A DNA stretch of 64,000 nt, from contig JAZBLS010000001.1 of the NCBI GenBank assembly GCA_037033365.1, forward strand, positions 18,937 through 82,936. The letters run 5' to 3'. The position numbers and the translations under genes were made by a program. The notes under the pieces are model-generated. The model was not told the DNA's origin. It saw nothing but the letters and a program-made list of their open reading frames with translations, and did not search any database. Every line of letters starts with the position of its first letter. Within the stretch, counting starts at the first letter, position 1. Shown piece by piece: positions 5,857-47,522 of this stretch. This DNA is from Actinomycetota bacterium. Its GTDB lineage: Bacteria > Actinomycetota > Actinomycetes > Actinomycetales > Microbacteriaceae.

Positions 5857-5870
5857 CGCCTCTGGGTGAC

Positions 5871-5908
5871 AAGCCGAGCTGCCCATCGGGGGATTGGCAG
5901 CTCGGCTT
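5871..5908 (+). terminator. Hairpin terminator after APC permease
   Basis: AAGCCGAGCTGCC / GGCAGCTCGGCTT 13-bp perfect stem. Confidence 0.7.
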
Positions 5909-6052
5909 TGTCGTACCCGAAAGACGGCGGGCATCAGCGCCCGTCGGCGATGCACCAAACCGGAACAGTTCCCGACCGACGGCCCCCGTAGCGTCGGAGA
6001 TAGACACGAGCCGTCCGGACAATCGACGTCCGGACCCCGAAGGAAGAGTCTC

Positions 6053-7024: not shown

Positions 7025-7144
7025 TTCGTTCGGTGGCCCGGTAACGGCCATCTCTCCGTGGGCTCGGGACGTTTGCGCGTCTCGAGCCCGCTCTCTTTTG
7101 GGAGGTTCGCACGGAGCAAGCATTCCTTGTCTGCAAGGCGAGGG

Positions 7145-7173
7145 TTGACAGACGGAAATTCCCGGGATACCTT
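7145..7173 (+). promoter_or_regulatory. Housekeeping-sigma promoter of the transketolase/kinase operon
   Basis: TTGACA 7145-7150, 17-bp spacer, TACCTT 7168-7173; quasi-palindrome TGAATAGGTATGCA just downstream may be the SorC-type operator. Confidence 0.65.
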
Positions 7174-7212
7174 TTTTGAGCACATCCCGTCACTAATGAA
7201 TAGGTATGCAAG

Positions 7213-10506: not shown

Positions 10507-10530
10507 GCCGATCCCACCAAGGAGTTTTCT

Positions 10531-11340
10531 GTGTCAACGACGACCTCATCCCTCGCTCTGTACGACAAGCACTTCACCGACCGCACGGTCGTCGTCACCG
10601 GCGGCGCCAGCGGTATCGGCCTGGGCGTAGCCCGCGCCTTCGCTGCGGCCGGTGCGAGCGTCGCCATCGCAGACCTGAGCGCCGAAGTGCTCGCTGTCGC
10701 CGAGAACGCGCGCGCTGATGGGCTCGACATGACGGGCGTCCGTCTGGATGTCACCGACGAAGCCGCCGTCATCGACTTCTTCGCCGACCTCGCTCAGCGC
10801 TGGGATCACCTCGATGTCCTTGTCAACAACGCCGGCATCATCCGCATCAACGACCTCGGTGACACCTCGCTCGCCGATTTCAATGCCGTTCTCTCGGTCA
10901 ACACGACAGCGGCCTTCCTCGCTTCACGCGAGGCACTGCCTCTGCTTCGACAGCGAGGGGGTTCTATCCTCAACGCCGCTTCGGGGCAGGCGAGGCAGGG
11001 GTTCATCTTCACGCCCGCATACGCGGCCAGCAAATTCGGCATCGTCGGCATGAGCCAGTCGCTCGCGAAGGAACTCGCTCGCGACGGCATCCGAGTCAAT
11101 TGCTATTGCCCGGGCATCGTTCGTACGGAGATGTGGGAGTACAACGACCGGGAGTGGGGCTCCCGGCTTGGCGACTACAAGCCGGGAGAACTCATCCAGG
11201 AGTGGATCAACGGCATCCCGCTCGGTCGTCCTGCGGAGAGCGACGACGTCGCCGCGCTCGTGCTGTTCCTCGCATCGGATGCAGCACGCTACATCACCGG
11301 ACAAGCCGTCAATATCGACGGCGGCATGTTTATGAACTGA
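10531..11340 (+). CDS. SDR oxidoreductase (polyol/acetoin dehydrogenase-like)
   Basis: TGGASGIG, NNAG, YAASK, YCPGIVRTEMW, TGQAVNIDGG. Confidence 0.88.
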   Translation: MSTTTSSLALYDKHFTDRTVVVTGGASGIGLGVARAFAAAGASVAIADLSAEVLAVAENARADGLDMTGVRLDVTDEAAVIDFFADLAQRWDHLDVLVNNAGIIRINDLGDTSLADFNAVLSVNTTAAFLASREALPLLRQRGGSILNAASGQARQGFIFTPAYAASKFGIVGMSQSLAKELARDGIRVNCYCPGIVRTEMWEYNDREWGSRLGDYKPGELIQEWINGIPLGRPAESDDVAALVLFLASDAARYITGQAVNIDGGMFMN

Positions 11341-11368
11341 TCGACCCTCTCGAACCGACGGAGTTTCC

Positions 11369-12388
11369 ATGAGTACCCAACCTTCCACCCAGCCCACCGA
11401 AACGGCTCTGATCCGAGGCGCCGGTTCATCAGCGGCAGCGGCCCGCACCCCGCTCTCCCGCCTGCTCTCCGGATCCGGCGGCGCGTTGCTCGGCTTCATC
11501 CTTCTCTTCGCGATCTTCTCGCTCACAACACCCCGTTTTTTCTCGGTCAACAATCTGGTCAACGTCGTCGACCAGGTGACTGTGATCGGAGTGCTCGCGA
11601 TCGGCGCGACGGCCGTCATCATCACCGGAGGTATCGATCTGTCGGTCGGCTCGGTGCTCGCGCTGAGCACGATGGTGCTCGGCTGGCTCTCCCATGACGG
11701 AGGCGTTCCGATGTGGGTCGCGATGCTCGCGGCAGTCGCCGTCGGTGCACTCGCCGGACTCCTCAACGGCCTGGGGGTGTCAATCGCCGGTCTGCCCCCT
11801 TTCATCGCCACGCTGGCGATGATGTCGATCTGCCGCGGTTTGGCGAACCTCGTCACCGACGGCCAGCAGATCGTGGGATATCCCGAGTGGTTCTATTCCC
11901 TCGCCTCGACCCGCTACCTCGGATTCTTCTCCGTCACGGCGATCGTGTTCATCCTCCTGGCCGTTGTGGCGACCGTCGTCCTCAAGTACCGGCCAGCAGG
12001 CCGAAAGGTCTACGCGATCGGCGGAAGTGCCGAGGTCGCTCGTCTCGCGGGGATCAAGGTCCGGAGCGTCACGACGTGGGTCTACGTCGCAGCCGGAGCG
12101 CTCGCCGGAGTCGGAGCAATCATCCTCGCATCGCGTCTCGACTCCTCGCAGCCGAGCGCAGGAACAGGGTATGAGCTCGACGTCATCGCCGCAGTCGTCA
12201 TCGGCGGCGCCAGCCTCAGCGGCGGTTCGGGACGCATAGCAGGCACCGTCATCGGCGTTCTGATCATCGGGGTGCTGCGCAACGGGCTCAACCTCCTCGG
12301 TGTATCGCCGTTCCTTCAGCAGATCGTCATCGGACTCGTCATCGCCGGTGCCGTCATCGTCGACGTACTGCGTCGTCGTTCGCACTGA
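11369..12388 (+). CDS. Sugar ABC transporter permease (RbsC family)
   Basis: GGIDLSVG, GRKVYAIGGSAEVARLAGI, GYELDVIAAVVIGGASL. Confidence 0.92.
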   Translation: MSTQPSTQPTETALIRGAGSSAAAARTPLSRLLSGSGGALLGFILLFAIFSLTTPRFFSVNNLVNVVDQVTVIGVLAIGATAVIITGGIDLSVGSVLALSTMVLGWLSHDGGVPMWVAMLAAVAVGALAGLLNGLGVSIAGLPPFIATLAMMSICRGLANLVTDGQQIVGYPEWFYSLASTRYLGFFSVTAIVFILLAVVATVVLKYRPAGRKVYAIGGSAEVARLAGIKVRSVTTWVYVAAGALAGVGAIILASRLDSSQPSAGTGYELDVIAAVVIGGASLSGGSGRIAGTVIGVLIIGVLRNGLNLLGVSPFLQQIVIGLVIAGAVIVDVLRRRSH

Positions 12389-32294: not shown

Positions 32295-32793
32295 CCGGAT
32301 CAAAGGGACGAGAGGCTGGCCGACGGTCGGCAGGTCCGCACTGCCTCCGGCCGCGCCGATGGCGCTGGTGATCTGCTTGTGTAGCGAAGCCGTCAGAGCC
32401 CCTGCGGTGACGCTGGAGCAGCTCCACGAGAGGGCTTGGAGCAACTCCAGGCTGCGATGTGGGTCGAGGAGAGAGAAAAGCGCAGAACTCTCGCCGTGCG
32501 TGACACCCTTCGGATAGTCCGGATAAGTGTTCTTATCGTGCCCAACGGGCCAGACGTTGAAGTGAGATGGGGCTGAGTTGGTGATCGGTGTTTGAGCAGT
32601 GCTCGAGCGGGATCGCAGGGGTTCCGGCGTCTGCAAAGTAGTGAGCCTGTCCGGTGACCTCGTCGCCGGTGGGCGGTGTCTCACGCTCCGGCGATCTGTC
32701 CCCCGAACGGTCTACAGACGAGTTTGAGGTGGGTACGTAGCGTGGAAGACGGTGGAGCGTCCACCATGAGATAAGACGCGAAGGAGCATCATC

Positions 32794-34072: not shown

Positions 34073-34789
34073 CTAGAGCTGGCGGTCGTCGCTCTGAGGT
34101 TCGTCGGAGTCACCGAATCCGAAGCGGTCGACGGTGACGCCCCGCAGCTCGGGGAAGCGGTCCAGGCGTGTGGTCGCGCGGGACTCCGCAGCGGGACGCG
34201 GGGTGGCTGAGGGCGGTGTAGTCGATGAAGGTGTCGGAGCAGGAGCGCGCTGAGGCATCGGCGCGACGACGGGCGCCGCGGTGGATGAGCGCATCATGTG
34301 CGAGACGAACTGGCGCGGCTTGACGATGAGGCGGCCGTTCCACGCCGGGCCGAGGTCGGTCAGATGGTGATCCGAGGAGACGATGACGTCGGCGTCGACG
34401 GCGGGGTCTTTCGCGAGGGCGAGGATGTGGTTGTCCTCGTGGTCTCCGATGCCGTGGTCGCGGACGATCGGGTCGACGATCCCGCCGCCGGTGAGCTGAC
34501 AGGTCTCGACGATGAACTCGAGGAACTTCTGCCGGGTCTGATCGCTCTGGCCGTTCTCGTGCATGACCCGATTCACGTTCCGGAGAATGTGCGGGGACGC
34601 GAAGAGCGCGTAGCGATCGTCGAACGCGAGAGCGAGCGTGTCGGCAGCCGGCGAAGGGGAGGGGATGTCCGCCTCGGTGGGAAGCAGGATGCGACCCTCG
34701 GCGCGACCGATGTAGTCGAGGTAGACGTTGACGTCGAGGACGACGGGGATCTTGCGGGGTCCCGCTGCTGTGCGGGTGCTGTCGCTCAC
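34073..34789 (-). CDS. PIN-domain protein (putative toxin, PIN_3-like) with Pro/Ala-rich C-terminal extension
   Basis: VVLDVNVYLD, DHEDNHILALA, IVSSDHHL acidic PIN catalytic motifs. Confidence 0.8.
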   Translation of the reverse strand: MSDSTRTAAGPRKIPVVLDVNVYLDYIGRAEGRILLPTEADIPSPSPAADTLALAFDDRYALFASPHILRNVNRVMHENGQSDQTRQKFLEFIVETCQLTGGGIVDPIVRDHGIGDHEDNHILALAKDPAVDADVIVSSDHHLTDLGPAWNGRLIVKPRQFVSHMMRSSTAAPVVAPMPQRAPAPTPSSTTPPSATPRPAAESRATTRLDRFPELRGVTVDRFGFGDSDEPQSDDRQL

Positions 34790-35052
34790 GGCACCCGGAG
34801 GTCCTGGATGAGCGCGAGCGTCTCCTCGGTCGTGAAGACCTTGCCGCCACGCTCTGCGAGGGCTTCACCGTGGAGGGTCTCGACGCCGGCGCGGATGTCC
34901 TGGAGACGCTTCAGCCGCAGGCGCTCCTTGAACTCGGTCATGGCGACGCGCAGGAACTCGCTGCGGTTGCCGCCGCCGAACTCCGCGGAGAGCTCGTCGA
35001 GCAGGGGGACGTCGGCCTCTTCGAGGGCGAAGCTGATGGGTCGAGCGGCCAT
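34786..35052 (-). CDS. Ribbon-helix-helix (CopG-like) putative antitoxin
   Basis: ISFAL..DVPLLDELS....NRSEFLRVAM RHH pattern; 4-bp overlap with PIN gene. Confidence 0.75.
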   Translation of the reverse strand: MAARPISFALEEADVPLLDELSAEFGGGNRSEFLRVAMTEFKERLRLKRLQDIRAGVETLHGEALAERGGKVFTTEETLALIQDLRVP

Positions 35053-35204
35053 GGCGGGCCTCCTCACGCGTTAGTAATTGATTATTAAGGGTACTGCGCA
35101 CTTCACCCGAGGGCAATGGTGGAGCGCGATCAGGTGGGGTCTCCTACCAGCCGCCCGCGAGCGCCTCGGCGGGACGGTACTCGTAGCGTTCTTCTCCGCG
35201 TCCT

Positions 35205-35853: not shown

Positions 35854-36306
35854 TGTACCGTATTTGCTTCCCAAAACGGGTACACGGGTACGCAAGAGAA
35901 ACCGCAGTTCAGGGGACGGAAAAAGCGCGATGCACACGAGCGGTGCGTACCGTACTTGAGTACGCGAAAATTGAGATACGGTACGCAGGGATGGGCCTCT
36001 CCGCCTGTGTTTCCAAGGATCTAAGAGGGAAGAAGGGAGACTTGTACCCGATGTACCACCGATTTCGAGAAACTCCACACATGCGCGCATGCGCACGCAC
36101 ACGCATACAGTTCCTTCGAAAATCTGGTACATACGGTACGCGGTGGGTAAGGTCCCGGTGAGCGGGTAATTCGGATCGCGATGGCCTGGTACGCAAACGG
36201 GTACGCAATCCTCGCTGCGCGTGAAGCGAGGGAGCCAAAAAGCACTTCTTATCTGGCATTTTTATGGCTTCGGTCTGGCATGCGGTGCGTACCCGATCGG
36301 CGGTAC
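35854..36306. repeat. GTAC-rich iteron-like array A (origin-like)
   Basis: 15 GTAC in about 450 bp; TGTACC pair (36043, 36052) facing GGTAC pair (36126, 36135); several GGTACGC(A) copies in both orientations. Confidence 0.7.
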
Positions 36307-36538
36307 AAGTGTCTGACGTGTCGCCCGAAGACCGCTGTCGAGTAACGATCTGCTGGCGCGTCTCCCCTGCCACCCGGGGGTAGTGGGGTTGGTCTCGCCG
36401 ACGTCATAGTGCGGAGTCGGCGCTCCTGTCAGTACGCGCCGGACGAGGTCGGGATCTGAGGCGTCGGGGGTGATGGCCAGCAGCCACTGGCTATTCGTTC
36501 ATCGCAGGCGCCTGGTTGCCCTTGTCGGCCGTAGCCGC

Positions 36539-37174
36539 TTACTCGCCCTCGGAAGCCTCGCTCTCCTCGATCAAGTTGACCACGGGTGCTGCGTCCAGAC
36601 CGATGGCGAGCCACGTGTGCGGACTGATGGGCTCGCCGTGGATCGTGAGTCCTGCTTCGTGTGTAGCCATGAAGACATAGGTTCGCTGTGGCTCCCAGGC
36701 GGGCGGGATCGCGGCGACCACATCATGTAACCCTGGCAGGAGGCCAGTTCTTTCGTCGAACTGCCAGGTCGGATACCTGCGAAAGCGGCCGATCTTGAAG
36801 AAGTGCAGCTGTTTGTTCTGAGCGAGTCGTCTCACTTGTCGGAGTCCGACGTCCAAGAAGTATGCTGTTTCGTCGTCGCTAAATGAGTCGATGATGGCTT
36901 CAACTTGGGCGCGGTACTCTGGGCGCATTCTTCCGGCAGGATGAGCCGGACTCGCTTCGAAAAGAACGTCCGCACCTTTTTCGGAGATGAAGCCGGCGAT
37001 CGTAAGCACGAGCGACTTGACCAACTTCCAGTCGCGACCGTGCGCTGCCGCAGTGCCGATCAGACGCTCGAGAGCAGCCTTCGTTGATTCGACCTCAGTG
37101 GGTGTCTTGGAGCTGTCTTCGACGGGATTATCGCGCGTCGTCGGCGCGTCCACGGTTCCGTCAGTCGATGTCAT
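36539..37174 (-). CDS. Rv2175c/MbcA-Xre-like DNA-binding protein
   Basis: HTH-like ETAYFLDVGLRQVRRL, YPTWQF, C-terminal SPHTWLAIG..A.PVVNLI. Confidence 0.65.
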   Translation of the reverse strand: MTSTDGTVDAPTTRDNPVEDSSKTPTEVESTKAALERLIGTAAAHGRDWKLVKSLVLTIAGFISEKGADVLFEASPAHPAGRMRPEYRAQVEAIIDSFSDDETAYFLDVGLRQVRRLAQNKQLHFFKIGRFRRYPTWQFDERTGLLPGLHDVVAAIPPAWEPQRTYVFMATHEAGLTIHGEPISPHTWLAIGLDAAPVVNLIEESEASEGE

Positions 37175-37997
37175 GTTGGTAACCCTCCAGCAGGATCGCG
37201 ACGTGCAACGGATCGCACCCTTGAGACAGCCATCTCGTAGGCGTTTGGCTTTGACGATTGATCTTCAGGTGCCAGGTGGGTGTTGTGAAAAAGCGGTGTA
37301 TCCGCGGCAGCGTCCAATCGGAAGGCATCGAAGACACGATCAGGTTGATGCCGTTGACGACCGATTTGCCTTCTTCTGTTGAAAACTGCCACATCGGATA
37401 GCGCATCTCGTTCGGAGAGAGCGCGACGGCGTGCAGGAATCCGGCGCGCGTGACGCGGTCGAGATAACGGCGAGACGTGCGCAGGCGGATGACGGCTTGC
37501 TCTGGAGTCAGCGACGCCTTCATCGCAGCGCGCTTTGTTGTGTCGCTGTCCGCGGCCGCGGGTTCGCCGGCCATCGCGCCGATGCGCTCGTCTCGTGCCA
37601 CGAGCGCGAGCACGCGCCTGCCTGCTTGGAGGCTTTTGGGGACGCCTACTTCGTCACGGACATATCCGAGTCGACGCCATACAACGATCACCGCCCTCCA
37701 GAAGCGATGCCGCGCCAGATCCAAGTCCTTTCGCCCCCAGTCTTCGGCTAAGCGCGAAGGGAGGCCATCGGTGTCGGGGAAGAGATGCCTGAAGACATCA
37801 CGAACCGTTGGTCCCTCGTTGTAGCGACGGCGATGATGAACTATGTACAAGCCGGCCGCCAATCCCCACTGCGCCGCTGACCGGCCGGTCGTGAGCTCCG
37901 TGAAGAGGGCGCGCCATGCCAATGGGGCCGGGCGTCTCGCGGATGTCCACCAGTTTTCAGGACTCAAGTACCCAGAGTTCGCCATGGCAGTGGCCAT
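37161..37997 (-). CDS. Rv2175c/MbcA-Xre-like DNA-binding protein with extra N-terminal winged-helix-like domain
   Basis: GPTVRDVF (LexA-DBD-like), YPMWQF, FFTTP...TPTRWLSQG.DP.HV.ILL. Confidence 0.65.
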   Translation of the reverse strand: MATAMANSGYLSPENWWTSARRPAPLAWRALFTELTTGRSAAQWGLAAGLYIVHHRRRYNEGPTVRDVFRHLFPDTDGLPSRLAEDWGRKDLDLARHRFWRAVIVVWRRLGYVRDEVGVPKSLQAGRRVLALVARDERIGAMAGEPAAADSDTTKRAAMKASLTPEQAVIRLRTSRRYLDRVTRAGFLHAVALSPNEMRYPMWQFSTEEGKSVVNGINLIVSSMPSDWTLPRIHRFFTTPTWHLKINRQSQTPTRWLSQGCDPLHVAILLEGYQHDID

Positions 37998-38112
37998 CCT
38001 CTCGCTCGTCTACGGTCAACCCGGTCGGGCTTTCGATCGCCTCAGCGCTAGGTTCGCAAGCGGTCGCCCTATGGGTAGGCGCTCGCGAGACGCTGTCGGC
38101 TTCGAATCAGAA

Positions 38113-38135
38113 TATGGCTTACCAGTAAGCCCATA
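38113..38135. promoter_or_regulatory. Palindrome between divergent regulators
   Basis: GGCTTAC-CA-GTAAGCC with bulged TAT(G)/CATA extension. Confidence 0.5.
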
Positions 38136-38166
38136 CAAGGAAGCCATTCTGGCGACGCTTGTAACC

Positions 38167-38451
38167 GTGACAGGGCGACCGGGCGAGGCAGACGCCGAGT
38201 GGCGTGAGTTCGTCCTGCAGCTCTCGGTTCATCTCAGGCGCCTACGGCACGACGCTGGCCTCAGCCAAGAGGAAGTCGCCCATCGAGCTGGACTGAGCCG
38301 ATTCATCTATCGCCAGTACGAGAGCGGTGAATCGCGCCGCGGAACGGCCGCGAACCCCGCGCTGCGGTCGATCCTCTCGATCGCGCAGGTGCTTCAGGTG
38401 CCTATCGAAGAACTTCTGCCTAAGTCGATTCCGGACCTTCGTAGTCGTTGA
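38167..38451 (+). CDS. XRE family HTH regulator
   Basis: LRRLRHDAGLSQEEVAHRAGLSRFIYRQYESG..NP.L.SI..IAQVL. Confidence 0.85.
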   Translation: MTGRPGEADAEWREFVLQLSVHLRRLRHDAGLSQEEVAHRAGLSRFIYRQYESGESRRGTAANPALRSILSIAQVLQVPIEELLPKSIPDLRSR

Positions 38452-39562
38452 CCCGTCGCGCGGGTAATCTTCTGCGGTGCTGCTCAGCCCCTGAGGCTGT
38501 CCCGAGAGTCTGACCGAGACCGTGCTTCACTTCCTGAAGCCCTGGTTTCCCCCAGTAGTGCCCCGCGATCACTGCCAGGAGCGCCATCTCAAGAGCAGCA
38601 AGCTCGTCGCTTCGGAACGGCCTCGGGGCGGCCTCGGCGTGGTCACGAGAAGTCCTGATCAGGGCCAGCATAAGACCAGGAATCTTGCGTCTTAGTTGCG
38701 GCGACGTCAGCGTGTCCGTTGACGGCCTCCGTGCGGCCTCCAATTGCTCCCCTGCGGGGCCCCTGGTGGCCGCCGAGCTGTGTTTCGGTCGAGCGGCATC
38801 GGATGTGCATGCCATAGCTTGCTGTCGCGTGGTTCGATCCTGGATCGAGCCCAGAGGGGATGCCGTGAGGCGCACCCGCGCCGCAGAGCGATTGCCCAGG
38901 GCAACCACCTCCGGGCGGTTGCGTCGGGAGGAAGAACGCGCATCGAGCCAGAGCCAACCGCAGCGCTTCTTCGCTTCGCTCGAGGCGTATCCCCCCGGTG
39001 CCACTGGGTTCCAAACCGTGGTCCCACGCCACCCCCGACTTTCCGGGGAAAATGTATCGCCTCGTCCCCATGACCCCCTGTGGGTCCTTCGGATTCGGTC
39101 ATGGGGACATGGATGATGTCCCCAAGCTTTTTCCCTGATAAAACAACAAAAATGATCCCGATGCCTCGCGAAAGCTCGGCTTCGGGTCCGAAAGGAGTAA
39201 AGAGCATAAGGGGAGGTGGCCCCGGGCTGTGTTTCCCACCTCGCTGCGCTCGCCCGAAAACTTGCCCGGTGGTCGGCGTAGCCGACGCCTCCTCGGTCGA
39301 GGGTTCGACTCTTGCTCCGCTCGGTCTCCTGCCCTCCCTCGCCGACTTCGCTGCGCTTCGTCGGCCCTCACTTCGCAGCTACCGCTGCTCGCCTGAGGAC
39401 GCCCCACTGGGGCCTCCACAGGTTGCTACCGGAGGAGCCCGGGCTACGCTGCGCTTGCTGGCCACCTCCGATGGGAATGTGGTGAGAGGTCGATCGGGGA
39501 TCACTTTGCGAACGCCCCCAACTTTCGCCTCGAATCGGCAGCAGTTTTGTGGTGCACCAGTA

Positions 39563-39931
39563 GACCGTGTACCTTCACGCACCTGGAGGTCACCAGGTAC
39601 GCGGGGCGGCGGAGAAAGCCCGGGCCAGAGCGCAAAGCTGGAAATTAGCGTCGGATTCATCGAAATCAGCAATTTCGGCCCTGATCAGGATTTTTCAAAG
39701 ATGTACCTGCTGTACCTGCCGCTACGAACAAACCTATATACGAGAGCAGCATGTAGGTGCTCGGTTGGCGTGGGTGGGAGAGGGGTCAGCCTCCTTCTCT
39801 CTTACTAGATTGTCCAGGTACACCAGGTACAGGCCTTAGCAGGCCGTCCGAGAGCTGGGAGATCACGCGGACTTCGATGTAACTGGAGGTGTGCCTGGAC
39901 CCCTCGATTCGGCAGTTACACACCAGGTACA
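39563..39931. repeat. Convergent octamer iteron array B (origin-like)
   Basis: TGTACCTG at 39702 and 39711 facing CAGGTACA at 39815, 39824, 39924; CAGGTACG at 39594; TATATA in core. Confidence 0.72.
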
Positions 39932-40150
39932 CCGGCTCACTCTCCCGACCTTCGAGCGCGGCTACACCCCAGCCGGGAAATTGGGCGCTCGCCGCAGATA
40001 TATCCGACGTGCTGTGTACAGTCGTGAGCAAGCCTGAATGACACTAAAAGGGCAGGGCCACCGAGGGTCCGACCATTTGGATACGCCAAGCAACCGCTAA
40101 CGGGTTCGGCTACGAGGTCCTCTTGGAAGTTTGACTTCCAAGGGAGATCC

Positions 40151-40372
40151 ATGCCTCTTTTCACCCCCGCGAGCACTAGTCTGCTGGACTCGCTGATCAC
40201 GCCGGCAACACTCGCCGCTCGCCTCGGCACGAAAAGTCTGAGCGAATGGCGCATCACCGGCCGTGGTCCGAAGTTCATCCGCATCGGCCGCAGCCCGCGC
40301 TACCGGCCTGAGGCCGTCGACGAGTGGTTGCTCGCGCAGGAGCACGCGAGCACCTCCGAGGAAGCTGCCTGA
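40151..40372 (+). CDS. xis: Excisionase / AlpA-MerR-like HTH protein
   Basis: LITPATLAARLG...WRITGRGPKFIRIGRSPRYRPEAVDEWL; TGATG overlap with integrase. Confidence 0.85.
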   Translation: MPLFTPASTSLLDSLITPATLAARLGTKSLSEWRITGRGPKFIRIGRSPRYRPEAVDEWLLAQEHASTSEEAA

Positions 40373-41511
40373 TGGGTAGCGCGTACTCGTACGACACGAA
40401 GAACGGCAAGCGCTGGGAAGCGCGTTATCGCAAGCCCGACGGCAAGACCGCGCGTAAGGGTGGCTTTGCGCGCAAGCGGGATGCTGAGGCATACATCACC
40501 TCGGTGGAGTCGGCGAAGCTTCAAGGCGCGTACATCGCACCGGGGGAGTCTCGAGTCACCGTCGGAGAACTGGGTACTTCCTGGCTGACCGCCCACGCGA
40601 TCGCTGTCAAGCCGTCCACCTTCCATAGCGACGAGAGTGCGTGGCGGGTCCACGTCGAGCCGGCCTGGGGGCGACGCCGTGTCGGCACGATCCGGCACAC
40701 GGAGGTCGCGGCGTGGATTGCCGAGTTGAGTTCTGAGCGCTCCGCGACCACCGTGAAGCGGTGCCATGGCGTTCTCGCATCGATCCTTGACGGGGCCGTG
40801 CGCGATCGCCGGCTTCAGTCGAATCCCGCACGCGAGGTGAAGACCCCGCGCAAGGTCCGGAAGCAGAGGGCCTACCTCACGCACCAGCAGGTTGAACGAA
40901 TCGCAACGGCATCTCATTATCCGGATCTCGTGCGGTTCCTCGCCTACACGGGGCTTCGGTGGGGCGAGGCGACGGGCCTCACAGTAGCGAACGTGGATGT
41001 ATCGCGGCGCCGACTGAACATTTCGTCGAACGCCGTCATCGTGAACGGACATGTGATCGTCGGTACGCCGAAGACGCACGAGCGGCGCACCGTCGTCTAT
41101 CCGGCCTTTCTCGATGCTGCGATGATTCATGCGATCACGCTCAAGCGTCCGGATGAGCTGGTCTTCCCTGCCGATACCGGTGGCTACCTCCGGCCGGGCA
41201 ACTCCGTGTCCGGATGGTTCGCTGGAGCGTGCAAGCGCGCCCGACTCGCGGATGCCTCCGATGTTGCCGAGGCCAGGGCTCGGGGCGAGGGGATTCGGGC
41301 GGTTATGCCGCGCGTGACGCCGCACGATCTGCGGCACACTGCTGCATCGCTCGCGATCAGCGCCGGTGCCAACGTCAAGGCGGTTCAGCGCATGCTTGGG
41401 CATGCGAGCGCGGCGATGACGCTCGACACGTACGCAGACCTATTCGATGACGATCTTGACGATGTCGCCGCGGCGCTGGAGGCATCGCGCACGATTGCGC
41501 TTGGACGGTAG
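40372..41511 (+). CDS. int: Tyrosine recombinase / integrase
   Basis: N-terminal arm-binding WEARYR..GGF..K..A; catalytic TGLRWGE, K (PKT), HDLRH, GH, TLDTYADL. Confidence 0.95.
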   Translation: MGSAYSYDTKNGKRWEARYRKPDGKTARKGGFARKRDAEAYITSVESAKLQGAYIAPGESRVTVGELGTSWLTAHAIAVKPSTFHSDESAWRVHVEPAWGRRRVGTIRHTEVAAWIAELSSERSATTVKRCHGVLASILDGAVRDRRLQSNPAREVKTPRKVRKQRAYLTHQQVERIATASHYPDLVRFLAYTGLRWGEATGLTVANVDVSRRRLNISSNAVIVNGHVIVGTPKTHERRTVVYPAFLDAAMIHAITLKRPDELVFPADTGGYLRPGNSVSGWFAGACKRARLADASDVAEARARGEGIRAVMPRVTPHDLRHTAASLAISAGANVKAVQRMLGHASAAMTLDTYADLFDDDLDDVAAALEASRTIALGR

Positions 41512-41764: not shown

Positions 41765-43345
41765 ATGAGCCCAGCGATCTATCCCGGCATCCGATTTCCT
41801 GACCGTGCCGAAGCTTTGGAGGATTTCGAGGGATACCGCGTATTCCTCGAGCCCTGGAATCCAATTGCTGATGCTCTGCGCCCCCGGTGGGAAGCGGCCG
41901 CGCTCCGAGGTTCCTCGCACATCTTCGCGATCCACGGGCCGCAGGGCGCCGGGAAGACGCTACTCACCAGGAAGCTTGCGGGGGACTTCGAAACTACGAA
42001 GCTCGATCCGCATGGGCTTGAGCCTGATGCAAGCAACTTTTGGCACCGTGTCTCTGGAGGAAGCGCGCTTGAAGCGGGCACCATCCGTCATGCCACCGCC
42101 ATGACCGATTTCTTGACCATTCCAAACGTCAAGACCTGGCAGGGCGAAGTGGTGAGCTTCATCTCCGGACAGCGAGCGAACGCGCGTGTTCTGCTTGCGG
42201 ATAACGCAGAGCGCACCTATTTCCGGCAGGGCCTCGTCGAGATGACTGACATGGAGTACCTCTCTGCGGAGGGCCAGCCCGGGCTGAACCGCCTGGCAGC
42301 ACAACGTCTTGTCGACCAGCTGCGGACCTCGATGCGAGGAACACTTCTTGTCCTTCTAAGCAACTCAGCGGAATTCCTCAATGGTCTGCAGGATGAGGTG
42401 GAGCAGCAGCATGCCGGTTTGATGTCAGTCACTAACCTCGAGCTTCCTGGGCCACGTGACAAAGAGACGGTCATCCGGGTCAATACGAACCGGCTGAATG
42501 AGGCGTCGTACTGGGCGGCGATCGACCAAGGAACGATCGCTGATCGCGTGGCACTCAAGAGCGCGCTCAGCGGTGACACCACTTTCCCAGATTCCTTCCG
42601 CGCGGTCGACAGCGCGTCACGCAACCGAACCGGCCGCCCGGCGCTCCGAAACGTTATCTCGCTTCTAGTTCTTACGAATACTGAGGATGCGGCCGTCGAC
42701 CTATCGAGTATCGGCGCAGTGAAGCGCACCGAGGTGGATGATGCATGGCTGCGCGTTCAGGTCTTTGAGGAAGGGTGGGCTCCTCGAGAGATCGGCGATA
42801 GAGAGGCCGGACTTCTTGAGTCAGAGTGGTCGCTTCGTATCGCCGTTCTGGCACGTCCATTCGTGAGCGCACTTCTCGCAGGGCGAGAGGATCCGGCTCA
42901 GCGTGCGCAAGTCGCCGCGCTCTTGGATGAGCTGAAAACCTATCAAGGGCCAGGAACCCAGGCCTCTACGCGCGCAAACTACACGGAGCGGCTGCACAAA
43001 CACGTCGTTGAATGGATCGAACCGGACTACGACCTCGCCTCCTTCTGGGCAGCTGGTCAACACCGCTCCACCCAATACGAACCGGCGCTCGTTCAGGTGC
43101 TCCCGGGATACAACACATCCGCTAGCGGATTCCTTTCCTACCGACCCGACTTCGTGGTTAACGATTTCACGCCCTGCGCCGTGTCCGATGCCCCGGACGA
43201 GACTAACGACGCTATCCGCGCGGCTATCAGGCGGAGCGCGCACGTGTTCGAGTTCACGGCTATCGCGACAGGCGACCCGAGTCTCATGAAGTCTTACCTC
43301 GCGAGCAAGTTGCCCAACTATGTTCAGGTGACACAGGAACAGTAG
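41765..43345 (+). CDS. P-loop ATPase fused to C-terminal PD-(D/E)xK-like domain (candidate defence protein)
   Basis: GPQGAGKT Walker A, VLLADNAE Walker B-like, C-terminal YRPDFVV...VFEFTA. Confidence 0.7.
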   Translation: MSPAIYPGIRFPDRAEALEDFEGYRVFLEPWNPIADALRPRWEAAALRGSSHIFAIHGPQGAGKTLLTRKLAGDFETTKLDPHGLEPDASNFWHRVSGGSALEAGTIRHATAMTDFLTIPNVKTWQGEVVSFISGQRANARVLLADNAERTYFRQGLVEMTDMEYLSAEGQPGLNRLAAQRLVDQLRTSMRGTLLVLLSNSAEFLNGLQDEVEQQHAGLMSVTNLELPGPRDKETVIRVNTNRLNEASYWAAIDQGTIADRVALKSALSGDTTFPDSFRAVDSASRNRTGRPALRNVISLLVLTNTEDAAVDLSSIGAVKRTEVDDAWLRVQVFEEGWAPREIGDREAGLLESEWSLRIAVLARPFVSALLAGREDPAQRAQVAALLDELKTYQGPGTQASTRANYTERLHKHVVEWIEPDYDLASFWAAGQHRSTQYEPALVQVLPGYNTSASGFLSYRPDFVVNDFTPCAVSDAPDETNDAIRAAIRRSAHVFEFTAIATGDPSLMKSYLASKLPNYVQVTQEQ

Positions 43346-43740
43346 GGACTCGCCACAACTCGGGTAGCGCCCGAAGAGAGAGCACCGAGAACTCCGCGAT
43401 GTGCGTTGGTCGGGGAGCTACCAGCTCGACAACCAGCAAAGCGGGGTGTTCCGACTGCCGAACATCGGCCACACTGATGCACACTTCGTCACCCTCATAG
43501 TCACTTTTCAGGCGAACCTGAACGGCTCTACCTGCTCGGCAATACTCCTGTCGACGGAAGCGCTGACGCGCTTTTTCGTGACGAGCCGACGAAGCCGGGG
43601 GTGATCAAGTAGATGCTTCTCACAGATGACCCATGGCGCGTGCATGGTCGAGCCTGCTCGGATGGGCAGAGGAGTACCGCTATACGGGACTACAGCTGCG
43701 CTGATCGGTACCTACTGCTGCAGTCCGGCCTCGTGGGCGG

Positions 43741-44199
43741 TCAGCGACTATCGTCGCCACCGCGGCGGCCCGCCGATCCCCATCCGCGAGCAGCGACGAC
43801 TACGTCGCCGCGGTGCGTGCGCCGCTCCACGAGCGGCGGCTCGGGGGCGTTCATAACCTCTCCGAGCGTTCGGAGAGGAATGTGATCGTCGTCGAGGGTT
43901 GCGAGTTCGTGCACGTCGTCATCGAGGGCATGTAGGAGTCTCACGTCGGCGCGATGGTGAGCCTGGAGCGTGTCCTTCAAGACGATGACGGTCATTTCGC
44001 GGGCTTCGCAATATTCGCTTGTGCAGTACAGCTCGAGGCGGCCGGTGTCACTCGCGATGTCACCGTAGGAGCGCTTGACGCTCTTGTTGCCGCAGAAATA
44101 GCAGTCCAAGTAGCCGGGGCCTTCCTGCCCCTGCTCGGGTCGGTGTGCGCCCTCGCGGCGCGCCCAGGGTGCTTCGTCAGGTCCCCAACCGGTAGTCAT
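43741..44199 (-). CDS. Hypothetical protein with putative zinc ribbon
   Basis: CYFC...YCTSEYC cysteine pairs. Confidence 0.6.
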   Translation of the reverse strand: MTTGWGPDEAPWARREGAHRPEQGQEGPGYLDCYFCGNKSVKRSYGDIASDTGRLELYCTSEYCEAREMTVIVLKDTLQAHHRADVRLLHALDDDVHELATLDDDHIPLRTLGEVMNAPEPPLVERRTHRGDVVVAARGWGSAGRRGGDDSR

Positions 44200-44286
44200 G
44201 TCGTCCCCTTCGCTCGGCGTTCTCATGATCGTCTCATGACCAGCACGGCCACAAGCTCCACGGCGCGTAGTCCGCCACCGAACCGG

Positions 44287-45267
44287 CTAACCCGGCGGCT
44301 CCAGAAGGTCGACGACGTCCCGAAGACTGGGTGTAACTAATGTGTCGTAGAGCCCCGGCACCTTCGCGGTGTTGAGCAGCCCGGACCAAAACTTCTCGGT
44401 CACCACGACGTCGCAGTATGGCACGGCTACCGCCAGCGCGGTGACGTCGTTCAGGTCGTTACCCTCCCACCGCTTCTGTGGGTTCGCTTGCCGGAGATGA
44501 CGCAGCTTCATGTCGACCTGGCGTGAGGGCATGTGCGCGATGAGCCGTGTGACGTTACGCGCGTCGACGAGGTCCTCCGGTGGTACACCCAACTCTTGGG
44601 CCGCTTCGATCGCGGGCTCAAGGATGTCTTGCATTGCCGTCGCCGCCATGATGTTGGGGAGCTTGGCCTTACCCAGCTTGTGCACCCAACCGGCGATTCG
44701 GTTCTGTTCGGTGACGAACTGAGAGTCGTAGTTCAGCATGTCCTGGAAGACCAGGCGTGTGCTCTCCGGGTACCCCGCGGGGGCGAGGCCGCCGAGAATC
44801 ATCTCTTCCCACTTCGGCACCGCAACCTCATACAACTGTCGCTTCTGCTCCTCTGACAGGTTGGTCCCGTCTACTTCGTCCGGTATGGGGTAGCGGAGGG
44901 AGGGTAGGGCATGCGCGTGCGCCGCAGTTTCGCCAAAAAGCTGCAACTCGGGGAGACGCACGTTCAGGTCGAAGACCTCGATGATCGCCCTTCGGATCTC
45001 CCACGGAACGATGACGTGCGGTGGGGCGATGCGATCCATGCCGGCGAGCCGCATCATCGTCTTGGCGAGGTCGACCCGTCGTCGCCGCTCCTGAGTCTTG
45101 CCTGTCTCGATGTAGTGCGCGACGCTGAGAGGGAAGGACGCGCGACCGTCATCAGCGGCCCTCTTGAACGCCTCGAGCGAGTCGACGTGCTGAGCTCCCT
45201 GAGGGTGCCCGGTTTCGGCGCGCGCCAGATCTATCCACTTCATCTGGTCGAGGTAGATCGTCATCAT
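44287..45267 (-). CDS. PIN-like domain protein (about 326 aa)
   Basis: IYLDQMKW N-terminal Asp, HYIET, NDLNDVTALAVAVPYCDVVVTEK. Confidence 0.7.
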   Translation of the reverse strand: MMTIYLDQMKWIDLARAETGHPQGAQHVDSLEAFKRAADDGRASFPLSVAHYIETGKTQERRRRVDLAKTMMRLAGMDRIAPPHVIVPWEIRRAIIEVFDLNVRLPELQLFGETAAHAHALPSLRYPIPDEVDGTNLSEEQKRQLYEVAVPKWEEMILGGLAPAGYPESTRLVFQDMLNYDSQFVTEQNRIAGWVHKLGKAKLPNIMAATAMQDILEPAIEAAQELGVPPEDLVDARNVTRLIAHMPSRQVDMKLRHLRQANPQKRWEGNDLNDVTALAVAVPYCDVVVTEKFWSGLLNTAKVPGLYDTLVTPSLRDVVDLLEPPG

Positions 45268-45842
45268 CACGACACTCAGTCTGCCTGCACAACCTGCTTG
45301 CAGAGCGAAGCACCCGTCGAGCCGCGGGCGGTGCGACCATGAACCCTCGCCACATACATTGCGCCGTGACTCGTGTGAGTGGCCGATTCGCGCGAACCCG
45401 ATCCCGGAGTTCAACCCGTTCTTGGGTAGATCACTCGCCGTCCTCCCATGTGCCCGGATCGGTGCAACCTGAGAGTCGACCCGACAATCGTCCACGCCGC
45501 CGCGGCGCCACAGTGGCCTTCCAGGGCGGACGCGTCTAGATTATCGCGGCTGAGGGTCTACTTCGCTGCGATGAGCTCCACACTGCTTCGCTGCGGCACG
45601 AGGCCTCCGGGGAACAACTCGTCGATGGCCGGGGTGGGACTGGTTCATGCTTCCACGCGCTGCCTACGACTGACTACTTCCGGAATGGCTCATCATGGGC
45701 ATACCCCGCGGTAGCGCTATGCGGTAACGCAGCAGTAACGGAATGCATGCGGGAGCACGGGAGCTGGCGTGAGTAGATGTGAGTGACTTCCCTACATTTC
45801 CGATGGTTCGTGAGAAGGTGACAAGGCCGCGGGGTCGCGAGA

Positions 45843-45869
45843 TGGGTTCAAATCCCACCGTCACCGCCA
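45843..45869 (+). tRNA. 3' fragment of tRNA-Ser (CGA-type acceptor stem); att core, not an intact gene
   Basis: TGGGTTCAAATCCCACCGTCACCGCCA = T-arm + acceptor 3' strand + G discriminator + CCA; no matching 5' half upstream. Confidence 0.8.
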
Positions 45870-45871
45870 CC

Positions 45872-45919
45872 ACGAAGGCCCCGACTCCCGTCGATATGAC
45901 TGGGATGCGGGGCCTTCGT
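45872..45919 (+). terminator. Hairpin downstream of tRNA fragment
   Basis: ACGAAGGCCCCG / CGGGGCCTTCGT 12-bp perfect stem. Confidence 0.75.
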
Positions 45920-46029
45920 CATGTCCGACGTCGGGCGAGCGGTAACGCAGAAGTAACGATCGATCGCTATCAACTCCCTCGGCGGCCGCCCCGCTGAAGA
46001 CGTCCTCTCCGTGGTGAAGTCATGCCGGA

Positions 46030-46890
46030 TCATCGCAGATGCCGGTTCAGCACCTCGGCGCTCTTTCGGAAGCTCGAGATCGGGGATCCGTCGATCCAGT
46101 TGCGGTGCGTCTCGAGGATCACGGCGGCGGTGCCGACCGCCTTCGCCTGCGCGATGAACGCCGGGATGTCGATGTTCCCAAGCCCTAGCTCCACGGCATC
46201 GGGCCTGTCGATGGGCGTCAAGGAGGAGCCGGTGCGGCGTGTGCCCCGGTCGGTGAGGTGCACGAGCTGCACTCGCTCCCCGAGGCCGCGCATGAGGGCG
46301 ATGGCGTCAACTCCCGCGGCCGTCGGCCAGTAGCAGTCGAACTCGAAGTTGACTACGGCGGGATCCGTCTCGTCGACAATCAGCGAGTACGCGGTACGGC
46401 CGGATTCGAGGCGCCGGAACTCGACGTTGTGGTTGTGATAGAGCAAAGAGACCCCGCCATTTGCGAGCGTGCGCCCGGCAGCGTTCAGCCGGCGGACGAG
46501 ATCGCGAACCCGCGCCTCATCGGTGTAGTCGAACCGGTGCATTCCGGTGATCACGACGCGCGACGTGTCGAAGGTCGCCGCTCGGGCGATCACGGCGTCG
46601 GGCTCGCGCTCGATCGTGCCGAGGTCTTCATGCAGGCCGACGACTTTCAGCGCGGAGTCACGGATGAGCCCGGGCCAATCCAGCCGTCCGCCGCGACCGA
46701 CCGGCATGCCGGATGCCCTCGTCAGCGCCCGAACGAACAGTGGCGTGGGTCTGGTCATGAAGCCGTTGAGCTCGATGCCCTCGAACCCGGCCTGCACCAG
46801 AGCCTCGAGCGTCTCGTGTGCCTGCTGTTCGGTCGACAGCACTGTGCCGATCTGGATCTGCTGGATCGCGCGGAGCGGACGCCCGCTCAT
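46030..46890 (-). CDS. Sugar phosphate isomerase/epimerase family (TIM barrel)
   Basis: GFEGIEL, LLYHNHNVEF, FEFDCYW, HLTD, ELGLGNID, ILET. Confidence 0.85.
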   Translation of the reverse strand: MSGRPLRAIQQIQIGTVLSTEQQAHETLEALVQAGFEGIELNGFMTRPTPLFVRALTRASGMPVGRGGRLDWPGLIRDSALKVVGLHEDLGTIEREPDAVIARAATFDTSRVVITGMHRFDYTDEARVRDLVRRLNAAGRTLANGGVSLLYHNHNVEFRRLESGRTAYSLIVDETDPAVVNFEFDCYWPTAAGVDAIALMRGLGERVQLVHLTDRGTRRTGSSLTPIDRPDAVELGLGNIDIPAFIAQAKAVGTAAVILETHRNWIDGSPISSFRKSAEVLNRHLR

Positions 46891-47522
46891 TCGACTGCTC
46901 CCTCTCGTGCCGCGGCCGGAGGCTGGGCTGCCACCAGCTTCATGAAGGTGGTGAGCAGGCCGAGGGCGTCGCGAGAAGGATCGAGCAGCGCCTGGATGCG
47001 CAGACCGTCGACCATGGCCAGAACGAGCGTCACCTTCTCGTCGGCTGTGAGCAGCTCGCTGTCGCTCGTGGGGAGAGGGCCGTCGGTGAAGCGCGACCGC
47101 ATGCGCTCGCGGCGACCGAGGAAGAAATCGTGCGCGGGGTGCTCGGGGTTCGTCGCGGCCACGGTGAGGGCCAGCCAGTTGCGCTGGAAATCGGAGTGCG
47201 AGAACTCGTCGGCGAGCACCGCGCTCAGGATCTGCTCGCCCGGGATGTTCGCCGTCATGATCCGCGCAGCGAGGTGCTCCTCGTGCTGCTCCCGCTGCGC
47301 GAGCGCTGCGGGGAGCAGCTCCTCCTTGCCGGCGAAGTGGCGCAGGAGTGCAGCGTGTGTCATGCCGGCGCGGGAGGCGATGTCGCGCAGCGACGCGCGC
47401 TCGTAGCCGTGCTCGGCGAAACTCGCGAGGGCCGCTTCGACGATCTGAGCTCGCCGCGCGGGGGTGGTCGCGCTCTGCCCTCGACGGCGGGGGGCGCGCG
47501 CGGCGGTCAACGGTGACGTCAT
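46887..47522 (-). CDS. TetR family regulator
   Basis: GYERASLRDIASRAGMTHAALLRHFAGKEEL. Confidence 0.9.
   Translation of the reverse strand: MTSPLTAARAPRRRGQSATTPARRAQIVEAALASFAEHGYERASLRDIASRAGMTHAALLRHFAGKEELLPAALAQREQHEEHLAARIMTANIPGEQILSAVLADEFSHSDFQRNWLALTVAATNPEHPAHDFFLGRRERMRSRFTDGPLPTSDSELLTADEKVTLVLAMVDGLRIQALLDPSRDALGLLTTFMKLVAAQPPAAAREGAVE

What the first reader, a model, noticed from the sequence alone, without database searches (positions are those of the whole stretch)
35854..41511. Integrative element with two sibling origin modules but no replicase, relaxase or structural genes: possible new non-autonomous satellite class
Seen: two arrays 3.6 kb apart share a GTAC core, 9-bp tandem spacing and convergent symmetry but differ in flanking bases; between them lie only small DNA-binding genes and structured non-coding DNA; then xis-int. 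No primase, helicase, Rep, relaxase or capsid gene is visible in the window. Inference: either a minimal parasite replicated in trans by two different helper replicases, or nested relics of two related elements.
Basis: inference. Interest (0 to 1): 0.65.

Follow-up and report, generated by a model that had tools for sequence, protein, structure and literature searches.

The report
Orphan GGTAC-site arrays beside an integrase
Two dense, evolutionarily conserved clusters of a short GGTAC DNA motif sit upstream of the excision and integration genes of a Microbacterium genomic island at tRNA-Ser. No gene in the island or its relatives plausibly encodes the protein that reads them, so they look like docking sites (most like satellite replication origins) for a factor supplied from elsewhere.

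Summary
Array 1 (35855-36306) has 13 GGTAC sites and array 2 (39569-39930) has 7 exact sites plus variants. The genome average is 1.1 per kb, and the draft genome has no other such array.

Both arrays recur in the same order upstream of xis-int in four or five other Microbacterium species. The sites are positionally conserved (92-98% column identity) while the spacers drift (66-74%). The genes between the arrays, and the cargo after int, differ completely between species.

None of these relatives has a replicase, primase, helicase or relaxase between the arrays. The window and the neighbouring stretch of its contig have none either. Simple decay of a replicase and "two nested relics" are therefore both unlikely.

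The Int arm-type sites appear to be a different motif: GCAGTAACG tandem pairs flanking the tRNA-Ser(CGA) core.

attR lies at 45844-45869, and the matching attL lies 52.8 kb upstream, outside the window.

Best reading (about 0.4): the arrays are cis-acting assembly sites read by a trans-supplied protein. Their architecture is most like SaPI/P4-type origins. Rival readings are an operator, transfer or packaging role. Function is untested.

The parts
32513..32641 (.). 130-bp segment conserved with the close relative L176. It is the leftmost DNA shared with that element and a possible left limit of the conserved backbone.
   Evidence: blastn of window against L176: 80% identity over 131 bp
34073..35067 (-). 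RHH (34786-35067) plus PIN (34073-34789) pair, VapBC-like. It is also linked to an array-1 copy in G441 contig 8.
   Evidence: Pfam RHH_1 and PIN_3; 77% DNA match next to the array-1 copy in G441:C8
35564..35803 (-). 79-aa helix-turn-helix protein transcribed away from array 1. A homologue adjoins array 1 in some but not all relatives.
   Evidence: Weak Myb/AsnC-type HTH hits. 47% identity to the array-adjacent ORF in G441:C8. A similar ORF read by eye in L139 and a 79-aa ORF at the same position in L176. No homologue near array 1 of L047.
35855..36306 (.). Array 1: 13 GGTAC/GTACC sites (consensus about acGGTACGCA), arranged as opposed pairs around a centre.
   Evidence: 12 of 13 sites are conserved in position in at least 5 of 8 aligned copies (10 of them in at least 7) from 7 species
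36076..36109 (.). Centre of array 1: a 34-bp perfectly alternating pyrimidine-purine tract (CACACATGCGCGCATGCGCACGCACACGCATACA).
   Evidence: Read. The alternation is kept in all 8 copies despite substitutions and a 2-bp indel.
36539..37174 (-). 211-aa protein with an excisionase-type HTH_17 domain.
   Evidence: Pfam HTH_17, below cut-off
37161..37997 (-). 278-aa paralogue of the 211-aa protein; function unknown.
   Evidence: 27% identity over 114 aa to the 211-aa protein; only hypothetical relatives found
38180..38451 (+). XRE/Cro-type HTH protein. The ORF is open from 37843; the true start is uncertain.
   Evidence: Pfam HTH_31/HTH_3
38971..39505 (.). Conserved non-coding DNA. The core block 39200-39295 is nearly invariant in 6 elements, contains hairpins and keeps no reading frame.
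   Evidence: no Rfam match
39569..39930 (.). Array 2: 7 exact GGTAC sites plus CAGTTAC/CAGGCAC variants (consensus CCAGGTACA). It encloses the lowest-GC 60-mer of 33-47 kb (39642-39701, GC 0.40).
   Evidence: site columns 98% against spacers 74% identity in 4 species
40078..40111 (+). Invariant leader TGGATACGCCAAGCAACCGCTAACGGGTTCGGCT upstream of xis.
   Evidence: 100% conserved in 4 species
40151..40372 (+). xis (73 aa, HTH_17 excisionase type); its stop overlaps the int start.
   Evidence: Pfam HTH_17 and PHROG 66 excisionase
40372..41511 (+). Tyrosine integrase (379 aa) with an N-terminal extension of about 60 aa before the SAM-like domain, read from its motif as an arm-binding (AP2-like) domain; no family model matched that stretch.
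   Evidence: Pfam Phage_integrase, Phage_int_M and SAM_3; 525 relatives found, many beside the same tRNA-Ser core
41765..45495 (.). Variable cargo slot: 526-aa P-loop ATPase (+), 161-aa (-) and 402-aa (-) proteins.
   Evidence: In relatives this slot holds AAA_13 plus PIN-TPR-GreABC, a ResIII helicase, or a protein kinase plus TPR protein.
45721..45741 (+). Inferred Int arm-type sites in the P arm: GCGGTAACGCAGCAGTAACGG, a tandem pair.
   Evidence: Conserved in the window, L047 and L048. Its geometry matches the E1 arm pairs.
45844..45869 (+). attR core, identical to the 3' end of tRNA-Ser(CGA).
   Evidence: Exact copies at C1:3343 (in the tRNA), 11980 and 64780
45870..45958 (+). P'-arm-type remnant after the core (hairpin plus GGTAACGCAGAAGTAACG). 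It is not the native tRNA downstream sequence.
   Evidence: 85% identical to the sequence after core copy 2. The native flank in G008 and L048 is different.

Best explanation
SHOWN. The stretch is the conserved backbone of a family of Microbacterium genomic islands that integrate at tRNA-Ser(CGA). They use a tyrosine integrase plus Xis, and they carry variable cargo slots. The two GGTAC arrays are protein-binding cis elements under purifying selection.

INFERRED. Their reader is neither Int nor Xis, and it is not consistently encoded in the island. It is therefore supplied in trans, by the host or by another mobile element.

MOST LIKELY MECHANISM (inferred from architecture only). After Xis/Int excision, the arrays act as origin-type loading sites. 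A winged-helix or similar initiator/helicase binds short oriented repeats on both sides of an easily distorted centre. In array 2 that centre is the AT-rich tract at 39642-39701; in array 1 it is the 34-bp alternating Py-Pu tract. This is how SaPI origins work, and it resembles the P4 ori/crr pair. The difference here is that the initiator gene is absent from the element.
For: - Enrichment and uniqueness of the arrays.
- Site-specific conservation against drifting spacers: 8 copies of array 1 and 4 of array 2, from different species.
- Both arrays lie in the same order upstream of xis-int in the window, L047, L139, L140 and L176, while the genes between them are unrelated: XRE plus two HTH_17 paralogues; unknown 116/298-aa proteins; or hydrolase, PucR-like and T5orf172 proteins.
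- The only proteins shared by all array-bearing elements are Xis and Int.
- The arm-type sites of Int are inferred to be GCAGTAACG tandem pairs at -121 and +69 of the core. The neighbouring element E1 shows the same geometry with its own motif and has no internal arrays.
- An 85%-identical Int in L048, with a near-identical N-terminus, has no GGTAC array within 8 kb on either side.
- The architecture matches published SaPI origins: 6-12 penta/hexanucleotide iterons, half on each side of an AT-rich centre, with at least two per side pointing in opposite directions (PMC9371898).
- The lowest-GC 60-mer of the 14-kb region lies inside array 2.
- From my own knowledge, not checked here: P4 needs two octamer arrays, ori and crr, about 4.5 kb apart.
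Against: - No initiator was identified anywhere. This genome has no other GGTAC array, no Prim-Pol or D5_N gene, and no FtsK/SpoIIIE-domain gene beyond two large ORFs read as the chromosomal FtsK and an EccC-like protein.
- No similar arrays were found in plasmid or phage collections by BLAST. Viral-contig pattern scans gave only chance or coding hits.
- Every known satellite, even the minimalist PICMI, keeps its own primase or replicase (PMC10803314).
- The att-defined unit is 52.8 kb, which is large for a satellite.
- Apart from 39642-39701, the centres are only modestly GC-poor (0.52-0.54).
- Array 1 also occurs without xis-int, for example in a mercury/metal-resistance context, and array 2 is missing from L062. 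The two arrays are therefore separable modules.
- The array motifs resemble the arm-type motif (CAGGTAC / GGTACGCA against CAGTAAC / GTAACGCA), so Int binding is not excluded.
Confidence: 0.4

Rival explanations
1. Operator arrays. The GGTAC sites are binding sites for a transcription regulator, either host-encoded or the 79-aa HTH protein beside array 1. That regulator would control the xis-int promoter (array 2) and the divergent promoter at array 1, setting when the island excises.
For: - Array 2 sits directly upstream of the fully conserved xis leader.
- Array 1 abuts the start of a divergently transcribed HTH gene in the window, G441:C8, L139 and L176.
- Relatives with a divergent xis/int arrangement lack array 2.
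Against: - Ten to thirteen sites spread over 370-450 bp is far more than a promoter operator needs.
- The 79-aa HTH gene is absent next to array 1 in L047, and different genes adjoin the array in L142 and L144.
- No sigma-70-like promoter was found in 35.5-40.2 kb, though actinobacterial promoters are poorly modelled.
- Array 1 has no downstream gene start on its right side in the window.
Confidence: 0.25
2. Transfer or packaging sites used in trans. The arrays would be a clt-like locus read by a TraB/FtsK-type translocase, or a pac/cos-like site read by a helper phage small terminase. That would make the island an integrative mobilizable element or a satellite that borrows transfer rather than replication.
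For: - The cognate protein is not encoded in cis.
- Streptomyces clt loci are arrays of 8-bp repeats recognised by TraB (PMC4447253).
- The cargo slots hold defence-like genes, as in satellites and mobilizable islands.
Against: - clt repeats are described as direct repeats, not opposed pairs around a centre.
- No TraB-like gene is evident in this genome.
- No match to any phage or plasmid was found.
- A 52.8-kb unit is not obviously sized for a capsid.
Confidence: 0.15
3. Accessory Int/Xis sites. The arrays are extra arm-like sites bound by the integrase N-terminal domain or by Xis, serving autoregulation of xis-int or control of recombination direction.
For: - Xis and Int are the only proteins shared by all array-bearing elements.
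- The motifs resemble the inferred arm-type site, and variants such as CAGTTAC and GTAACC occur inside the arrays.
- Sites occur as tandem pairs, like arm sites.
Against: - The arrays lie 6-10 kb from the core.
- The att arms contain no GGTAC.
- E1 and L048 show that this integrase family works with one tandem pair per arm and no internal arrays.
- Pair spacing is 9 bp in the arrays against 10-11 bp in the arms.
- Array 1 occurs in islands without an adjacent xis-int.
Confidence: 0.1
4. Nested relics. Each array is a leftover of a different decayed element, or a chance or assembly artefact.
For: - The tRNA-Ser locus here is a composite of several elements with remnants: three cores, a truncated DUF6119 gene and an orphan P' arm.
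- The arrays are separable in some genomes.
Against: - The same array 1 - non-coding block - array 2 - xis-int order is kept in five elements from different species, with site-level conservation.
- No relative whose between-array genes were annotated has a replicase between the arrays.
Confidence: 0.05

Closest known systems
SaPI/PICI replication origins (Staphylococcus aureus pathogenicity islands)
   Same: Short 5-6 nt oriented repeats, 6-12 per origin, split on both sides of an easily melted centre, with at least two per side in opposite directions. Both lie in a tyrosine-integrase island that carries accessory cargo (PMC9371898).
   Different: SaPIs encode the cognate Pri-Rep immediately upstream of the ori, whereas no replicase is present here or in five relatives. 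There are two arrays with different flanking bases. One centre is an alternating Py-Pu tract rather than AT-rich. There are no packaging or capsid-remodelling genes. The host is a high-GC actinobacterium.
Satellite phage P4 ori and crr (own knowledge; not found in the searchable library)
   Same: Two separated cis-acting arrays of an octamer in both orientations, a few kb apart, in a tRNA-integrating element with a tyrosine integrase and defence-cargo hotspots.
   Different: P4 encodes the alpha primase-helicase that binds the octamers, and both P4 arrays use the same octamer. There is no sequence or gene homology to P4 here.
PICMI minimalist satellites of Vibrionaceae
   Same: Very reduced islands with int, an AlpA/Xis-type HTH protein and defence cargo, dependent on a helper for spread (PMC10803314).
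   Different: PICMIs are about 6 kb and still encode a primase needed for replication. No iteron arrays like these are described for them. Their integration site (next to fis) and their host are different.
Actinomycete integrative elements (AICEs) and TraB/clt transfer; integrative mobilizable elements
   Same: An actinobacterial tRNA-integrating element with a xis-int operon. The clt loci are arrays of short repeats read by a protein that can act in trans (PMC4447253, PMC3429521).
   Different: AICEs carry rep and traB, and neither is present here. clt repeats are direct, not opposed.
Classical arm-type sites of lambda/L5-type attP
   Same: Short oriented repeats, often in tandem pairs, associated with a tyrosine integrase that has an arm-binding N-terminal domain.
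   Different: The arm sites of this integrase are identifiable separately, next to the core, with another motif. The GGTAC arrays lie 6-10 kb from the crossover site and have many more copies.

Membership tests
tRNA-integrating tyrosine-integrase genomic island | Tyrosine recombinase with catalytic domain | tested here: met
   Pfam Phage_integrase 7e-19 plus central and SAM-like domains
tRNA-integrating tyrosine-integrase genomic island | Direct repeats of a tRNA 3' end bounding the element | tested here: met
   A 26-bp core identical to the 3' end of tRNA-Ser(CGA) occurs at C1:3343, 11980 and 64780. The same repeat structure is seen in G441, G442 and G443.
tRNA-integrating tyrosine-integrase genomic island | Empty site in a relative | tested here: inconclusive
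   G008 has a single core, with the native flank 11.8 kb from the shared TetR flank. The intervening DNA was not analysed.
PICI / SaPI-type phage satellite | Own primase/replicase adjacent to an iteron origin | tested here: not met
   Origin-like arrays are present, but there is no Rep or Pri in the element, the island or the relatives.
PICI / SaPI-type phage satellite | Packaging or capsid-interference genes (terS, cpm, ppi) or a helper cos site | tested here: not met
   No PHROG or Pfam hit of that kind. The only capsid gene is in the separate element E1, outside the window.
PICI / SaPI-type phage satellite | Helper-induced excision, replication and transduction | not testable with these tools
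P4-like satellite | alpha primase-helicase, psu/delta/sid | tested here: not met
   No D5_N or Prim-Pol gene in the genome; no such genes in the element.
AICE (actinomycete integrative and conjugative element) | FtsK-like TraB and a Rep gene beside xis-int | tested here: not met
   The only FtsK_SpoIIIE hits are two large ORFs on other contigs (916 and 1401 aa, the latter with two domains), read as the chromosomal FtsK and an EccC-like protein. There is no rep in the island.
Integrative mobilizable element | int/xis plus a cis-acting site used by a helper's machinery, and no transfer genes of its own | tested here: inconclusive
   int/xis are present and transfer genes are absent. Candidate cis sites are present, but no helper is known and no transfer has been shown.

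The most novel reading that the evidence does not exclude
A family of actinobacterial integrative islands carries one or two complete origin-type iteron modules but no initiator. One module has a Z-DNA-prone alternating Py-Pu centre in place of an AT-rich unwinding element. The islands would be amplified or moved only when an unrelated phage, plasmid or host factor that reads GGTAC sites arrives. That would make them replicase-less satellites, a class not yet described.
Probability: 0.2. Interest if true: 0.8.

Novelty: new variant of a known kind. Interest (0 to 1): 0.55.

Why it matters
If the arrays are origins or landing pads read in trans, these islands would be the first satellites or mobilizable islands known to dispense with their own replicase. 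They would also be the first such system in Microbacteriaceae, and they would lower the accepted minimal gene set for a hitch-hiking element.

Whatever the function, the arrays give a portable sequence signature: GGTAC sites in fixed positions around a centre. That signature marks defence-cargo islands in Microbacterium. It also points to an unidentified sequence-specific DNA-binding protein that could be fished out with a simple pull-down.

Tried and rejected
- **Other GGTAC clusters in the genome (C35, C135, C153, C9).** These are coding repeats or a small palindromic cluster upstream of a gene, and are unrelated.
- **Rfam on 33-48 kb.** Nothing at E<=1.
- **BLAST of both arrays and the non-coding block against plasmids and phages.** No match.
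- **Exact-pattern scans of viral contigs.** These returned only single chance hits or collagen-like coding repeats, never arrays. I therefore did not spend the metagenome scan on such short patterns.
- **PADLOC, PHROG and NCBIfam on island proteins.** Nothing beyond generic HTH and excisionase hits.
- **Small conserved ORF in the array 1 centre (MYR..PHMRA..).** Rejected because a 2-bp indel in L142 and L144 breaks the frame.
- **55-aa ORF in the non-coding block.** Rejected because of a 1-nt indel between homologues.
- **Covariation in the non-coding block.** The block is too invariant to support or reject an RNA structure.
- **Empty-site definition with close relatives.** The flanks are not collinear on the left.
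- **Native tRNA downstream flank of G008.** Not found in this draft genome.
- **P4 ori/crr literature.** Not found in the held library.
- **Loci from other genomes.** Mostly not available in the Python box, so cluster-type scans across loci were done with pattern searches only.

Full report
**1. Observation**

GGTAC is twice as frequent in the window as in shuffles (98 against 48 +/- 8). The excess comes from two clusters. Thirteen sites lie in 35855-36306 and seven in 39569-39930. The genome average is 1.11 per kb, giving Poisson tails of 1e-14 and 2e-7.

The 9-bp tandem pairs and the opposed geometry (GTACC GTACC ... GGTAC GGTAC) are as described. Array 1 reads about acGGTACGCA. Array 2 reads CCAGGTACA, with variants CAGTTAC and CAGGCAC.

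No other array of this kind exists in the 3.41-Mb, 278-contig assembly. The four other GGTAC clusters are coding repeats or a small palindromic cluster upstream of a gene.

**2. Genes**

GC3 drops between about 35.1 and 46.0 kb. That stretch contains the following genes.
- A 79-aa HTH protein divergent from array 1.
- A 211-aa HTH_17 protein and its 278-aa paralogue.
- An XRE protein.
- xis (73 aa) overlapping a 379-aa tyrosine integrase.
- A 526-aa P-loop ATPase and two unknown proteins.

An RHH-PIN pair lies just to the left. Every other sizeable ORF of the window is metabolic, transport or regulatory.

**3. Attachment sites and true extent**

The sequence at 45844-45869 is identical to the 3' end of tRNA-Ser(CGA). 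The intact tRNA lies at C1:3278-3368, outside the window, and a further copy of the core lies at C1:11980.

Between the tRNA and core 2 lies a separate 8.6-kb element, E1. It has its own integrase (53% identity), an XRE gene and an HK97-type capsid gene.

Core 2 is followed by a hairpin plus GCAGTAACGGAGCAGTAACTG. Core 3 is preceded, at -121, by GCGGTAACGCAGCAGTAACGG. The same P arm follows int in L047 and L048.

E1 has the same geometry with its own motif, GTGACAACAAC/GTGGCAACAGC, and has no internal arrays. I therefore take the GTAAC tandem pairs to be the arm-type sites of this integrase (inference).

By att sites, the Int-defined unit is 52.8 kb (C1:11980-64805). About 40 kb of it is metabolic genes. 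In G441, G442 and G443 the equivalent core-to-core distances are 102, 132 and 50 kb.

G008 has one core and the native downstream flank. Core 3 here is followed by another P'-type arm, not the native flank. The locus is therefore a composite with remnants.

**4. Comparative evidence on the arrays**

The integrase has 525 detected relatives. Many lie beside the same core.

Array 1 homologues occur in 7 of 400 other Microbacterium genomes sampled. Aligning 8 copies from 7 species shows that 12 of 13 GGTAC sites keep their position. Site columns are 92.5% identical and spacers 66%.

The centre of array 1 is a 34-bp perfectly alternating pyrimidine-purine tract. The alternation survives substitutions and a 2-bp indel.

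Array 2 is present upstream of xis-int in the window, L047, L139, L140 and L176. Site columns are 98% identical and spacers 74%. It is followed by a 34-nt invariant leader. The lowest-GC 60-mer of 33-47 kb (39642-39701, GC 0.40) lies inside array 2, flanked by sites.

A block of about 100 nt of non-coding DNA between the arrays is nearly invariant in six elements. It has no conserved frame and no Rfam match.

**5. What lies between and beside the arrays elsewhere**

| Element | Genes between the arrays |
|---|---|
| Window, L139, L176 | XRE + two HTH_17 paralogues (by position, size and, for L176, DNA identity) |
| L047 | unrelated unknown proteins |
| L140 | alpha/beta hydrolase, PucR-like regulator, T5orf172 protein |

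The slot after int is just as variable.

| Element | Cargo after int |
|---|---|
| L047 | AAA_13 + PIN-TPR-GreABC |
| L139 | ResIII/DEAD helicase |
| L176 | protein kinase + TPR protein |

No replicase, primase or relaxase is present between the arrays in any of them. The 79-aa HTH gene adjoins array 1 in the window, G441:C8, L139 and L176 but not in L047. Other genes adjoin it in L142 and L144.

L062 lacks array 2. L048, L049 and L050 have a divergent xis and, where the sequence was read (L048), no array. Array 1 also occurs apart from xis-int, in G441:C8 and in a metal-resistance context in G600.

**6. Inference**

The arrays are real binding-site arrays under selection. The only proteins common to all bearers are Xis and Int, and their own sites are accounted for near the core with another motif. 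An 85%-identical Int works without arrays.

The genome holds no candidate helper: no second array, no Prim-Pol or D5_N gene, and only two FtsK/SpoIIIE-domain ORFs, read as the chromosomal FtsK and an EccC-like protein.

**7. Mechanism**

Published SaPI origins consist of 6-12 penta/hexanucleotide iterons. Half lie on each side of an AT-rich centre, with at least two per side in opposite directions. They are bound by the winged-helix domain of a self-loading Rep helicase (PMC9371898). This is the closest architectural match.

From my own knowledge, P4 uses two separated octamer arrays, ori and crr. All described satellites, including PICMI, keep a primase or replicase (PMC10803314). An initiator-less version would therefore be a new variant.

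The alternatives are listed with odds under the rival explanations:
- operator arrays for xis-int control;
- clt-like or pac-like sites (PMC4447253);
- accessory Int/Xis sites.

None can be excluded without experiments. I put the origin-type, trans-read interpretation at about 0.4.

**8. Verdict**

There is no replicase anywhere, and this is not decay or nested relics. The unit is large and composite, however, and a replication role and a helper are unproven.
- Novelty: a new variant of a known kind.
- Interest: moderate to fairly high, because a conserved, portable array without a cognate protein in cis is unusual and directly testable.

Noticed in passing
genome contig C1:3369-12006 (left of the window): A separate 8.6-kb element lies directly after tRNA-Ser(CGA). 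It has its own integrase (53% identity), an XRE repressor-like gene and an HK97-type major capsid gene. It could be a capsid-forming satellite or a prophage remnant. Its arm-type pairs (GTGACAACAAC/GTGGCAACAGC) sit at both ends.
   Followed up: partly
window 39200-39295: A roughly 100-nt non-coding block (AAGAGCATAAGGGGAGGTGGC...GGTCGGCGTAGCCGACGCCTCC) is nearly invariant in six islands from different species. It contains hairpins, has no conserved frame and has no Rfam match. It could be a small RNA, an oriT/sso-like site or another protein site.
   Followed up: partly
window 40078-40111: A 34-nt leader upstream of xis is 100% identical in four species whose surrounding DNA is only about 72% identical. 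It may be a regulatory RNA or a protein site controlling xis-int.
   Followed up: no
window 36076-36109: A 34-bp perfect alternating pyrimidine-purine (Z-DNA-prone) tract. The alternation, rather than the exact sequence, is conserved in 8 copies.
   Followed up: partly
window 45870-46912 and C1:12007-12610: An orphan P'-type arm lies after the attR core, and a truncated DUF6119 gene lies after core copy 2. Both are remnants of further integrations at the same tRNA-Ser hotspot.
   Followed up: partly
L043 (G184:C2) 9494-11500: The three-gene module (XRE plus two HTH_17-like paralogues) also occurs in another Microbacteriaceae genus, next to two other tyrosine recombinases and without GGTAC arrays. 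It is an independent cassette of unknown function. I suspect, untested, that the C-terminal region of the paralogues may resemble antitoxin toxin-binding domains.
   Followed up: partly
L176 11431-12963: In the closest relative of the backbone (84% DNA identity), a large serine recombinase gene lies just left of the 79-aa HTH gene. A 130-bp segment shared with window 32513-32641 lies beside it.
   Followed up: no
L142 (G600:C1) 4172-10717: A copy of the array 1 centre lies next to genes that by their sequence look like merA/merB, a heavy-metal ATPase, an ArsR-type regulator and an Lsr2-like protein (read by eye, not scanned against family models). An integrase fragment is nearby. Array 1 therefore travels in other island types.
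   Followed up: no
window 41765-45495: The cargo slot after int holds a 526-aa P-loop ATPase and two unknown proteins. In relatives the same slot holds recognised or likely defence genes, so this trio is a candidate defence cassette.
   Followed up: no
window 39102-39124: A terminator-like hairpin with a T run lies in the second lowest-GC stretch of the region (39093-39152).
   Followed up: no
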